Positions 14,444-26,419 of a stretch of 64,000 nucleotides of DNA are shown piece by piece (position 1 is the first letter of the stretch; every line of letters starts with the position of its first letter). Location: positions 323,578,001 through 323,642,000 of the forward strand of contig OZ024741.1 of assembly GCA_964016885.1 (NCBI GenBank). The letters are read 5' to 3'. The notes under the pieces are model-generated. The model searched no databases. It was not told the origin of the DNA and saw only the letters and a program-made list of their open reading frames with translations. Made by a program: the position numbers and the translations under genes. This DNA comes from Eledone cirrhosa. Lineage: Eukaryota.

Positions 14444-15158
14444 ACCCACACACTACCAAATTTCATTGACACAGTATTGGTCGTACCTTTGAACATGGCC
14501 CCTCTAATTTCTGAGCCACATTGCTATGCTTGTTATTACTACAAATCAGTTTTATCTTTTGTTCCCTGATAGACATGTTAAACAAAATGCAAATGATAAC
14601 CTCCACGACTGATACATAACTATAAATTATACTGAATATATATATATAACTCGAGCCACATCAATATTGCGGATATATTTTAGTATGCACATTGCAGGTC
14701 CGCATAAACAATTATTTGGACTGCATAAAATATTTGTTGTGTACTGGGGATATAATGTGAGTTCATACATTTATTTCTTACTCTACATCAGCCGTTATTA
14801 ATATTGGTTTCTGATTTAGGCACAAGGCCAACTACATATCTCTCTACTTTTGCCTATGTTAAAGTTAGCTAGAATCTTATATATTTCTGCTTATGTTTAA
14901 GAGTTGATGAAACTCATTTGCATCATTGTCGATTACTTCCCCCTACTTTTGCTGAGGTTAGGTGTGTGACGTCTGTCGCAACCTTAAACATTCATAAACA
15001 TCCCATATATATTATTCAATAAAAACCTTTTCATAAACACCCCATATATTATTCAATATAGTTAATGGTTTATATGCTCGACCCGTTCGACTGTTTTATG
15101 TGTATGTGTGTGTGTGTACATATATGAATATATATATAGATTCATATATATACACACG

Positions 15159-21881: not shown

Positions 21882-23690
21882 TTCAAAATATTAACAAAAA
21901 TAGACATTCGTGTGATCAAGTATATTTTATTATACATATTTCAGAGGTACTGAGCTATCTTCAACAGTACGTCCTCATCAGATAAAATAAGATGATGCAT
22001 GACATACCCTGACATAGTAGATGGTTAAGATTCAGTCATGATAGCGAATATGATATGACAAGACTCAATATTTATATACCTTAAGATTGAGACATGAAAA
22101 AATGTACATATAATACAGAGGGTGCGTGTGAGAAAGCTTAAAAATACATAATAGCAATTTACATAACTGTTAGAGATTCAAATAATTTAAATTATTGAAG
22201 AAAGAAGAAAGAAAGAAGAAAGACAGAGAGGAACAGATGAGGAAAAAAAATAGTTACTAGAAGTATAGAAAGCAAAAGAGAATTGATCAAGGATAGAGAG
22301 ACACAAAGGGGAATAATTTTTATAGTATAAAGCATAGATAAATACATGTATTTATCTATGCTTTAGGCCAACGTATAGATATGTTATCGAATAATGATTT
22401 GATACAGAAAGCCAGTAATTTTGATGGATGGAAAGTCAATTAAATCGACACCATTACATGACTGGTACTTTTATGTGGTACTTTATTTTATCGACCCCGT
22501 AAAGAAGAATGGCAAAGCAAATCTCAGTGGGTTTTGAACTCAGAACGCAAAGGACCACAACGCTATGCCGTTAATCATGTTGTCCAACGCTCTACCGATT
22601 CTGTCAATCCACTACCAAATAATGTAAAACTGTTCGCTCTGAGATACTAAGTTTCCTTATATTTAAACCTAGGAAGTCAAAATAACTCGTATATGGAGAA
22701 AGGGAGATAATTGTGGCAGTAAAATTACTGGTCGGAATGGAACCGATTTCTTTTAAAGAAAGAAGGACAATGAAAATGAGAGACAATGAAAAAGACATTG
22801 CTGGTAATTTATTTATCAACCTCGAAGGATTGAAAGGTAGAGTTGACCATGATGGGATCCGATCTCAGGATACAGGGAACTGAAATGAATGCCGCAAAGC
22901 ATCCTATCCGGTGTCCTGACGATTCTTCCAATCTCTCACTTATTTTACAACACATGCTTCAAACAAAAATTTGGAAATATTTTCAGTCATTTATTATGTC
23001 TTTCTCGAAGACACGGTGGTTGTTATTGATAGTTAAACCTCCTTCAATTCTGAATATATCTCATGTCTGAATATATGTATGAATGTATCATACATATATC
23101 TCTTTATGCATGAATATATCACATATGTCTCTGTATGTATGAATGTATTAAATATCTATCTATAGCATTCCACAGATACGTGCACGCTTAACGTAGTTCT
23201 CAAGTATATTCAATGCAGCAGAGTGTGTGATAAGGTACAAGTACAACTCATGTTTTTCTTTTTTTTAGCTGAATGGTGGACTAGAGTAACCTGATATATA
23301 TGGCACAACGTACCATCGGGAATCGAACTTACGACTTTACGAAACTGACCCGAACAACCTAACCAACAAGCTATGCGTCTTCACCTTCACACTATATTTT
23401 TCTTTTACATCACAAAATCTACATCAAACAACAATTTTGAAATAATTTCATGGCATTTATTATTTCAGTGGTGCTTGTAAATCCATTTTGTTTAACAACT
23501 TCCCACGCTTGGTAGAATCAAGAACTTCTTAGATTATATATTTGCCTGGAGGATATGATTTCATGAAAATAGTAAATTACAAGCGAAGCTAAAAACACGA
23601 AAAACCTAATCGCATGAAACTCATTATATTTTAAATATCTGTATGAAACACGGAGCATTGTCTCCCTCTTAATATATATATATATATATA

Positions 23691-24305
23691 TAAAACATGG
23701 GAAGAAAGAGGAAAACTGCGTGGTTGCACATGGGTTACATATTATAAAATTAGTCTCTCATCAGTGATTTGCCAACCATCATTGGTATTTCATCGCATTA
23801 AAAATCATATACCTCAGGTTGGTGCGAGCAATAACTAAAATAAGCTATTGGGACAAGTGAATCGCGTAAAGCGAGTGAGACAAGTGAACAACATAGAAGG
23901 AAAAGCAAACCGAAGGTAGGAAAAAAGCAAGCAACATGATGGTTATCCGGTCAGCATAAGCTGGGTGAATTTCATGAGCGGTCAGAAAACAGACCGTCCG
24001 ACGTGAATGAGATGTGAGAAAGAAAGAATCCCACTACTAACGAACGGGAGGAAGTGAGAAGGGGAGAAACAGAGAGCGAGTGAGTGGAAGTGCGAGGAAG
24101 AGGTCAGTCGAGAGAAAGTGTAACTGATAGAGGGGGGCAAAAGAAGGTGAGAGAAACAGAGAGAACGGGGGAGCAGAAAGAGAGAAACAGACAATCGCAG
24201 TCGAGGTAAATATGTATAAAAAACATGGGAAGAAAGAGGAAAACTGCGTGGTTGCACATAGGTTACATATTATAAAATTAGTCCCTCATCAGTGATTTGC
24301 CAACC

Positions 24306-24308
<3 letters not shown>
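23691..24308. repeat. (TA)n-bounded unit with an ~85 bp terminal direct repeat (period 528)
   Basis: CATGGGAAGAAAGAGG...GATTTGCCAACCAT at 23696 and 24224. Confidence 0.85.
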
Positions 24309-24631: not shown

Positions 24632-25243
24632 TCTTTTACTCTTTTACCTGTTTCAGCCATCCGGCTGAGGCCATGCTGGGGCACATATATATATATATAT
24701 ATATTTATATTAAATATAAAGGTTTACATATACATAAAGTTATAGATATATATGTTGCAACCGGTCACTTTTAAGCTCTATGAAGAATTAATAAATTAAA
24801 TAATCAGAGCAATATATCATAAATCATGTCTTTAGAATTATTAGATAAAATATATACCGTTTCTTCTTCCAATTAGCATAATTAACCATATAAAAAATCA
24901 ATTAGACCAAGCTATAAGAATAAAGGCTCTTATGAAGAAATATCCGACAAATAACCGAAAGTGACCTTAAAAGTGACCGGTTACAACTTAAAAGTGACCG
25001 GTTGCAACATATATATCTATAACTTTATATATGTATATGTAAACCTTTATATTTAATAATCTCCCGTTAGGTTGAGATTAAATTTGGAGATATTTGGCTG
25101 CGCTTTCTAGCAACAACCTACCCGCCGTAAGCAGCCAATCACATTCTTTCTAGCTTGACCACAGCCACATAGCGATTCTTAGCCATTTTTGAATCTAATT
25201 TTGGTGGGCCCAGGTTGAAAAACTAGATGTCTGATTTTGAGTT

Positions 25244-25322
25244 TGTCTCCTGATGAATCCTAACTCAGGACATTCCTATTAATTGGATGTCTAAAAATAC
25301 GGATGAAACCATGGTAGAGATA
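25244..25322 (+). ncRNA. Type I hammerhead within cassette 24700-25612
   Basis: TGTCTC CTGATGA ATCC...GGAT GAAA CCATGG TA GAGATA. Confidence 0.88.
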
Positions 25323-26361
25323 TAATTACGGTATGTACACATTTCTTCTAAGTTTAATTTTACACCTAATTGCGTATGGTTGATGATATATTTAGTCAGT
25401 TTCTACATGCTGTCGAAATGTTGGATAAATATACTATATTGGGGCCACCGCGAAGAGGCCACTTTCGGTTATTTGTCGAAGATTTCTTCATAAGAGCCTT
25501 TCCTCTTATAGCTTGGTCTAATTGATTTTCTATATCGTTAATTATGCTAACTGGAAGAAGTAACGGTATATATTTTATCTAATAATTCTATAGACATGAT
25601 TTATGATATATATTTATATATATATTTATATATATATATATGGGATGTATATGAAAAACATTTGAAGGCCTTTCGCTAAGAATTTATAAGATTGTGTCCA
25701 ACGTCACATACCTAACCCCAGCAAAAGCAATAGGAAGTAATAAACAATGTTTTGCTAAGGTTAAAATAAACTAGAAACTTATAGATTTCTGCTTATGTTT
25801 ATGAACTGATGAGACTCATACGGAGCGGTATATGGCCAGGCTTAAATTAAAAAGTTGTATTGGTGCTCCTACATAGTGATATACATATAAATGTACGTAT
25901 TGTCTATTTTATCTATGAACTGTAGACAAAGAAACAATCGATTTACGAAGCAGTAAGGAAATTTGAATTTTTGATAAGTATGTTAGCTTATTGTGGGTTG
26001 CGACAACGCAAGACTGACTATGGATTAGTATAATCAAGCTACCAAAATGATGTGTAAATTGTCAGCATTGCCTTGGTGCAATAGTTGCGCTATCGCCCGG
26101 CATACGTCAGATGTGAGTTCAGTTACATTTTTGATTAGGTGCTTTTGTCTGGGTGCTTATATACCTTATTTGTTTCAACGTATTATAGTCAAACTCTGTA
26201 GTAGCTTAACATACATTCAAAAATTCAAACATGCTCAACGCTTCTTAAAACGCTTGCTCTCATTCTCCCGTTCATTCATATATAGAACTGACTCCCTTCA
26301 ATAACCATGTGTTTTGCACCTAGAAAGTTCCCCTCCAAGGTGTGTGTCTTGGAGGGGAACT

Positions 26362-26419
<58 letters not shown>

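What the first reader, a model, noticed from the sequence alone, without database searches (positions are those of the whole stretch)
24700..25612. Circular permutation: the inverted arm joins the unit's end to its start
Seen: the reverse complement of 24700-24965 first matches ~25460-25610 (unit end). It then runs through a ~35-nt bridge straight into sequence matching ~24987-25058 (unit start). The unit contains the HHR at 25244-25322. Inference: the template was circular or tandem (~660 nt), and reverse transcription switched strand or template.
Basis: partly seen in the sequence, partly recalled or inferred. Interest (0 to 1): 0.75.

Follow-up and report, generated by a model that had tools for sequence, protein, structure and literature searches.

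The report
Two-armed hammerhead retrozyme, Penelope-type insertion
This is one of many genomic copies of a 658-base non-coding repeat that carries a predicted self-cutting RNA (hammerhead) and sits in TA microsatellites as two back-to-back arms with two fixed end points, likely because a Penelope-type retrotransposon enzyme copied a small, probably circular RNA from both cut DNA ends.

Summary
The inverted arm (24708-24967) is one contiguous 260-nt piece of a 658-bp repeat unit that occurs head-to-tail across this 3-Gb animal-type genome; the 'bridge' is ordinary unit sequence (30 of 30 loci). The unit carries a type I hammerhead with covarying stems and no ORF: a non-LTR retrozyme. Its insertions show the Penelope-like (PLE) footprint: (TA)n targets, 5' ends all around the unit, two fixed 3' ends about 100 nt apart, and head-to-head pairs that join one of each (31 of 31; also 17 of 17 in an intact autonomous PLE here). 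A single strand switch does not explain this; priming from both DNA ends does. A circular template is favoured, not shown: passes and arms of one insertion share rare variants (31 shared, about 1 expected), cross the ribozyme cut without added bases, and an excess of arms stops at the cut (11 of 21; weaker in two replicates). No RNA data; partner PLE not identified. This scan noted the same pattern in other repeat families of this genome. New member of a known kind.

The parts
24685..24707 (.). Left (TA)n target remnant
   Evidence: sequence; 3' flanks of nearly all arms shown are (TA)n
24708..24967 (-). Left (inverted) arm: monomer positions 140-399 counted from the ribozyme cut, ending outward at the long 3' end (site B, about 392-399)
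   Evidence: one contiguous 260-nt alignment, 97.7%, to a natural monomer; end classes
24776..24811 (-). The 'bridge': monomer positions 296-331, first part of the ~100-nt tail between the two fixed 3' ends; ordinary unit sequence absent from the right arm
   Evidence: present in 30 of 30 loci
24968..24986 (+). Central junction filler, 19 nt: near-copy of the first bases of the right arm; a 9-nt match is shared between the end of the left arm and the start of the right arm
   Evidence: sequence, junction list; 34 of 49 junctions overlap by 1-17 nt, 14 carry extra bases
24987..25611 (+). Right arm: monomer positions 332-658 then 1-295 (625 nt, crosses the ribozyme cut once), ending outward at the short 3' end (site A, 295)
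25244..25322 (+). Type I hammerhead ribozyme (predicted): stem I 6 bp, CUGAUGA core, stem II 4 bp plus extension, GAAA, 2-bp stem III with palindromic CAUG loop, cut after GUA at 25316
   Evidence: constrained fold; 85% of cells paired and 4 pairs with double changes across three related families; free MFE fold does not give the core
25612..25641 (.). Right (TA)n target remnant
   Evidence: sequence

Best explanation
This is one insertion of a 658-bp non-coding hammerhead repeat (a non-LTR retrozyme) whose two back-to-back arms end at two fixed sites in TA repeats, and it was likely written into the genome by a Penelope-like RT/GIY-YIG protein that primed reverse transcription from both cut DNA strands on a ribozyme-excised, probably circular, monomer RNA. 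Steps: (1, inferred) a locus with two ribozymes is transcribed and self-cleaves to a 658-nt monomer, part of which is ligated into a circle; (2, inferred) the PLE protein nicks both strands of a (TA)n tract; (3, ends shown, priming inferred) one strand starts at monomer position 295 and the other about 100 nt further 3', at AU-rich sites that resemble the target; (4, shown as anatomy) each cDNA runs a variable distance, 0 to 2 or more times through the cut site; on cleaved linear RNA it would run off at the cut; (5, inferred) the two cDNA ends are joined by microhomology, often with a templated filler, giving a head-to-head structure. In the window the left arm ran 260 nt from the long end and the right arm 625 nt from the short end. 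My odds: PLE-type two-ended insertion about 0.85; circle as the template of cut-crossing arms about 0.6.
For: Fixed 3' ends: 70 arms at A, 46 at B, 22 elsewhere, of 138 arms at 80 sites; lone arms 25 A, 3 B, 3 other. Head-to-head pairs: 31 of 31 classifiable are A+B, none AA or BB (49 pairs, 18 with an end elsewhere); second sample 12 of 12 (2 counted before); 689-bp sister family 9 of 9. An intact 900-aa RT+GIY-YIG PLE in the same genome (Pfam RVT_1 and GIY-YIG) has the same footprint: (TA)n, two ends 40 nt apart, 17 of 17 pairs heterotypic by my count. One haplotype per insertion: discordance at polymorphic sites is 5.7% between passes of an arm, 3.9% between arms, 29.8% between loci. Alleles seen in at most 2 loci are carried by every pass of an insertion in 31 cases in 24 insertions (324 single; naive recurrence 1.35 or fewer), and 11 cases in 8 insertions in the sister family (0.22). 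The cut junction has no added bases in 75 of 75 passes (69 exact). 11 of 21 arms reaching the cut stop there (about 1 expected, p 5e-9 to 6e-8); replicates 4 of 19 and 4 of 28 (combined p 0.004-0.013). All 49 central junctions differ (2 or 3 rows lost to output truncation). Literature: PLE partial tandems, inverted 5'-truncated copy and one-sided tail (PMC8557442); two internal RT start sites and cleavage of both strands (PMC11167929); circular retrozyme RNAs and PLEs as proposed mobiliser (PMC7229834).
Against: No RNA run holds the sequence, so expression, cleavage and circles are untested. No autonomous PLE sharing the unit's tail was found among 40 GIY-YIG loci; only a short end motif resembles one PLE end, and there it is the short end whereas here it is the long end. 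The tail (~100 nt; ~125 nt in the sister family) is longer than the 30-40 nt in the literature and the 40-68 nt in three autonomous families here. The window's own two arms differ at 10 of 156 sites, four of them in the innermost 47 nt of the left arm, more than is typical. The stop-at-cut excess was found post hoc, was much weaker in both replicates, and the bases just after the cut resemble (TA)n, so microhomology could contribute. Only 2 shared rare variants came from the newly added loci. An A>G/T>C bias among shared variants (18 of 31) did not replicate (2 of 11; 0 of 2). In vitro, the anole PLE used unprocessed RNA and did not need its ribozyme (PMC11167929). Long arrays here show DNA-level amplification, so tandem units can also arise without a circle. 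Samples are the best-scoring 40 matches per query, not random.
Confidence: 0.68

Rival explanations
1. Same PLE-type two-ended insertion, but the template is an uncleaved linear multimer transcript of a tandem locus; no circle is needed.
For: The 2-bp palindromic stem III is the weak, dimer-dependent type (PMC4209133), so multimers may persist; multimeric RNAs exist in axolotl (PMC7229834); unprocessed RNA was the main substrate in vitro (PMC11167929). A young source with identical units would also give one haplotype per insertion. A 46-unit array exists.
Against: Many different rare variants are present in all passes of their insertion, which needs repeated monomer-to-multimer steps. Only 11 of 218 between-pass differences recur in another locus, 5 of the 11 at CpG-type sites. 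No central junction is repeated among 49. The long array carries a stem I change in 37 of 39 units that at most 1 of 85 dispersed passes has, so it is not the master.
Confidence: 0.17
2. The template is the cleaved linear monomer and the RT jumps from its 5' end to a 3' end of the same or a sister molecule (end-to-end template jumping, as recalled for R2 RT).
For: An excess of arms stops at the cut, so linear cleaved RNA was probably used; monomer period and a monomer bottleneck are predicted as well.
Against: No added bases at the cut junction in 75 passes (69 exact, 2 with a 2-nt loss just downstream, 4 with substitutions). Jumps to other molecules should mix haplotypes, yet passes agree. 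That R2 jumps add bases is recalled, not from a call.
Confidence: 0.08
3. One reading: one reverse transcription event that switched strand or template (snap-back) made the inverted arm.
For: The central junction has a 9-nt match and a 19-nt templated filler, and the innermost 47 nt of the left arm carry four differences, one of them the other subfamily's allele.
Against: A switch would leave the outer end of the inverted arm variable. It is instead a fixed site followed by (TA)n, always the partner site of the other arm (31 of 31, 12 of 12, 9 of 9).
Confidence: 0.05
4. DNA-level rearrangement of a satellite, or an assembly artefact.
For: Two loci are locally amplified arrays with higher-order patterns.
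Against: Dozens of dispersed sites with unique junctions and common fixed ends, the same in sister families and in an autonomous PLE; arms differ by 6%, so they are not a read chimera.
Confidence: 0.02

Closest known systems
Metazoan non-LTR retrozymes (Cervera and de la Pena 2020, PMC7229834: abstract, passages and Discussion read; Li et al. bioRxiv 10.64898/2026.07.22.740005: parts 1-3 of 5 read)
   Same: Non-coding tandem repeat, low GC, one type I hammerhead per unit, dispersed short multimers plus rare long arrays, co-occurring with PLEs; circles and PLE mobilisation are already proposed there.
   Different: 658-nt unit is longer than the 170-400 nt RNAs studied in 2020, though within the 51-972 bp range of the preprint. 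The parts I read describe neither inverted arms nor fixed ends ('inverted' 0 hits in PMC7229834). RNA circles are not shown here.
EN+ Penelope-like elements, pLTR and tail architecture (Craig et al. 2021, PMC8557442: passages; Frangieh et al. 2024, PMC11167929: parts 1-2 of 4; Cervera and de la Pena 2014, PMC4209133: passages)
   Same: 5' truncation, partial tandems, inverted 5'-truncated copy, tail often at one end only, microsatellite / AT-rich target, two internal RT start sites, hammerhead; a circular template for more-than-unit copying was proposed in 2014.
   Different: No ORF (longest stop-free frame 67 aa); tail about 100 nt rather than 30-40; no homology to the PLE untranslated regions sampled; priming sites resemble the target, whereas the anole element starts at non-homologous sites.
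Non-autonomous Chlamys PLE derivatives such as MRC1 (PMC8557442, passage)
   Same: Non-autonomous, multicopy head-to-tail insertions made by PLE machinery.
   Different: Those share 3' sequence with an autonomous family and the clade lacks canonical hammerheads; no such partner was found here.
L1 twin priming (recalled, no call)
   Same: Two priming events from opposite target strands giving head-to-head arms joined by microhomology.
   Different: In L1 the second site is variable and upstream, and arms barely overlap; here both sites are fixed and the arms overlap by hundreds of nt.

Membership tests
Metazoan non-LTR retrozyme | Type I hammerhead in each unit | tested here: met
   Core and three stems present; core conserved in 81-84 of 85 passes per position; 4 pairs with double changes across related families, 1 of 500 shuffles reach the % paired (only 7 rows from about 4 lineages)
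Metazoan non-LTR retrozyme | Head-to-tail tandem copies with at least two ribozymes | tested here: met
   14 of 137 arms cross the cut two or more times; 46-unit array. The window copy has only one ribozyme.
Metazoan non-LTR retrozyme | Non-coding, low GC, no LTR/PBS/PPT | tested here: met
   Longest stop-free frame 67 aa over all six frames of the circle; AT-rich unit; PBS/PPT not searched specifically
Metazoan non-LTR retrozyme | Self-cleavage of the RNA | tested here: inconclusive
   Indirect only: excess of 5' ends at the cut, 11 of 21, 4 of 19, 4 of 28
Metazoan non-LTR retrozyme | Expressed as linear and circular monomer RNA | not testable with these tools
   No RNA holder listed
PLE-mobilised non-autonomous element | Partial tandem plus inverted 5'-truncated copy, variable 5' ends | tested here: met
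PLE-mobilised non-autonomous element | [quoted passage not shown] | tested here: met
   116 of 138 arms; 31 of 31 pairs heterotypic; tail longer than published
PLE-mobilised non-autonomous element | Young intact PLE with the same footprint in the genome | tested here: met
   900-aa RT+GIY-YIG family, many copies at 94-96% identity, same target and pairing
PLE-mobilised non-autonomous element | 3' sequence shared with an identified autonomous partner | tested here: inconclusive
   No homology to about eight PLE families in 40 loci, of 10595 GIY-YIG candidates
Autonomous Penelope-like element | ORF with RT and GIY-YIG endonuclease | tested here: not met
   No ORF in the unit; the unit repeats on itself with 658-nt period

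The most novel reading that the evidence does not exclude
The genome keeps a countable record that a PLE protein dimer primes both target strands on one ribozyme-made RNA circle, at two dedicated start sites, one per strand, with both RTs rolling around the same molecule by strand displacement; arms that stop at the cut record in vivo hammerhead cleavage. That would be the first sequence-level evidence I found (five paper searches) that circular RNA is the retrotransposition template of animal retrozymes, and would explain the PLE tail and inversion as one mechanism.
Probability: 0.4. Interest if true: 0.72.

Novelty: new member of a known kind. Interest (0 to 1): 0.45.

Why it matters
Retrozyme circles and PLE mobilisation have been proposed since 2014-2020 but rest on co-occurrence, shared ribozymes and pLTR similarity. 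A short, young, high-copy unit lets the insertion mechanism be read from the genome: strict pairing of long and short ends, one haplotype per insertion, and run-off at the ribozyme cut. It supplies a small defined RNA and an intact PLE protein from the same genome for a direct test of rolling-circle reverse transcription. The element class and the tandem/inverted/tail architecture are already known, and this scan noted the same pattern in several other families of this genome.

Tried and rejected
Rfam scan of the window: no hit. Unconstrained folding does not recover the hammerhead core, z -0.4 to -0.7; the constrained fold is 2.7 kcal/mol above the MFE. No RNA holder listed; the three runs laid are contigs of unrecorded kind from one sample and say nothing on RNA. 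Partner search: no homology of the unit to PLE loci apart from three nested older relatives of the repeat itself and a short end motif; rejected as identification of the partner. The 46-unit array as master locus: rejected (92-94% to the window, diagnostic stem I change, higher-order structure). A>G/T>C bias among shared variants as a sign of RT error or editing: significant in the first sample (20 of 31; 18 of 31 on re-analysis), not replicated; dropped. One search used a mis-registered structure string and is void; one search is the corrected count. Rows dropped before counts: the 46-unit arm throughout the variant tests; one locally amplified locus (C1:92.98 Mb); the window arm and one arm with a non-standard end; the query loci, five loci that had entered earlier through cut-spanning queries (all cross the cut; keeping the three non-query ones with usable ends gives 4 of 22) and arms with non-standard ends. 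The second sister family (about 70% identity) was used only for the ribozyme alignment. Supplements of the papers were not read; the bioRxiv ones are closed and may list such a family.

Full report
1. Observation. The reverse complement of 24967-24812 matches 25456-25611 (146/156), 36 nt follow with no match in the right arm, then 24775-24708 matches 24987-25058 (68/72). The ribozyme is at 25244-25322 with a predicted cut after 25316.

2. The family. The window lies in a 3.0-Gb genome; a 401-nt piece of the unit has 3437 first-look candidates and its 40 best full-length matches are 95-100% identical. In 30 of 30 loci (26 distinct sites) the 'bridge' is present, as part of an ordinary head-to-tail repeat. 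A natural monomer taken from cut to cut is 658 nt, and the window's left arm aligns to it as one piece, positions 140-399 at 97.7%; the right arm is 332-658 plus 1-295. The junction is therefore the repeat's own sequence. The unit has no ORF (longest stop-free frame 67 aa). Sister families exist at about 78% (689-bp unit) and about 70% identity. Across them the hammerhead stems hold: 85% of cells paired, 4 pairs with double changes, slid controls 33-47% (7 rows, few lineages). Stem III is 2 bp with a palindromic loop, the type described as dimer-dependent (PMC4209133).

3. Anatomy of insertions. At 80 sites, 138 arms were mapped. 3' ends: 70 at position 290-297 (A), 46 at 378-400 (B), 22 elsewhere; 5' ends in all ten bins of the circle. 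A and B ends run into (TA)n (partly truncated output). Of 49 head-to-head pairs, 31 have both outer ends at A or B, and all 31 are A+B. A second sample gave 12 of 12 (2 already counted), and the 689-bp family 9 of 9. Lone arms are mostly A (25 of 31). Central joints overlap by 1-17 nt in 34 of 49, are blunt in 1 and carry extra bases in 14. The window copy is a typical B+A pair with a 19-nt templated filler.

4. The likely enzyme. The genome has 10595 GIY-YIG candidates. One young family has intact ORFs of about 900 aa with RT and C-terminal GIY-YIG. Its arms that end in (TA)n do so at two sites 40 nt apart (40 and 44 of 86 ends), and by my count 17 of 17 head-to-head pairs join one of each. 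Two other families show paired ends about 44 and 68 nt apart. This matches the published PLE architecture: partial tandems, an inverted 5'-truncated copy, a tail often at one end only (PMC8557442, passages), and two internal RT start sites with cleavage of both target strands (PMC11167929). I found no PLE sharing the unit's tail among 40 loci, so mobilisation by a PLE is inferred from the footprint and the partner is unknown.

5. Circle or multimer. (a) One haplotype per insertion: at 51 polymorphic sites, passes within an arm disagree in 5.7% of comparisons, the two arms in 3.9%, different loci in 29.8%; at other sites all three are 2.7-3.0%. (b) Rare alleles (at most 2 loci) are carried by all passes of an insertion in 31 cases in 24 insertions, against 324 singles and a naive recurrence of 1.35 or fewer; sister family 11 cases in 8 insertions against 0.22; only 2 cases came from the newly added loci. 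This implies repeated passage through a single unit. Gene conversion or local duplication could give some of it, and two loci do show DNA-level amplification. (c) Only 11 of 218 between-pass differences recur at another locus. (d) The cut junction carries no added bases in 75 passes. (e) Among arms sampled by a query 3' of the cut, 11 of 21 that reach the cut stop within 16 nt of it, about 1 expected (post hoc); replicates gave 4 of 19 and 4 of 28, combined p 0.004-0.013. TA-like bases just after the cut are a confound. Together these fit a mixed pool of cleaved linear monomer and re-ligated circle, as measured for other animal retrozymes (PMC7229834). They do not prove it. The window's own arms differ more than usual (10 of 156). 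A mutational bias among shared variants did not replicate and is dropped.

6. Mechanism, with status. Shown: unit, period, ribozyme motif and covariation, fixed complementary 3' ends, (TA)n target, single haplotype per insertion. Inferred: cleavage and ligation, PLE nicking of both strands, one start site per strand, strand displacement, microhomology joining.

7. Comparison and novelty. The element meets the testable features of a metazoan non-LTR retrozyme and bears the PLE footprint; it is not an autonomous PLE. Circular templates and PLE mobilisation were proposed earlier (PMC4209133; PMC7229834; bioRxiv 10.64898/2026.07.22.740005). Five paper searches returned no paper whose listing or read parts report end pairing or haplotype tests on retrozyme insertions; the library lacks most subscription papers. 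After I had reached this reading, the scan's notes showed the same pattern in 310-, 316/318-, 467- and 537/541-bp families of this genome; none matches this sequence. Those notes are unchecked and I did not test their families.

8. Verdict. Real, correctly observed, new member of a known kind. Interest 0.45: the class and architecture are known, but the copies give quantitative, testable hints on an open mechanism. Most novel reading (both strands primed on one RNA circle): probability 0.4, interest 0.72 if true.

Noticed in passing
G000:C3:272135357-272166600 (L063-L066): 30-kb array of 46 units closed by a head-to-head arm; units form 2-, 3- and 4-mer higher-order patterns and 37 of 39 scored units carry a stem I change: a retrozyme turned satellite.
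   Followed up: partly
G000:C1:92985600-92992000 (L447): Second locally amplified array, at least 5.5 kb, with variants shared by alternate units.
   Followed up: partly
L292-L293 (G000:C2:200.83 Mb) and relatives: Young intact Penelope-like family, 3127-bp unit, ~900-aa ORF, minimal hammerhead-like motif, two 3' ends 40 nt apart, strictly heterotypic head-to-head pairs.
   Followed up: partly
L341-L370, L401-L446; L311-L340: Two sister repeat families (689-bp unit at about 78%; another at about 70% with a longer stem III). The first has the same short end and a ~125-nt tail.
   Followed up: partly
window 25085-25145: GC-richer block with a CCAAT-like motif, visibly conserved in both sister families; possible internal promoter, untested.
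   Followed up: no
whole window: A loose pattern finds 37 hammerhead-core-like motifs on both strands, several in repeated families and inverted pairs (e.g. 9073-/9225+, 15458+/16313-/16378+); many are probably ends of other PLE or retrozyme families, some chance.
   Followed up: no
window 25677-25819: Short repeat right of the insertion that matches 14848-14996 in two pieces of opposite orientation (78-83%) and holds a CTGATGA motif.
   Followed up: no
window 26321-26365: Small near-perfect inverted repeat beside a (TA)n tract.
   Followed up: no
window 23690-23790 and 24218-24308: Direct repeat of about 90 nt, about 530 nt apart, each copy next to (TA)n (seen).
   Followed up: no
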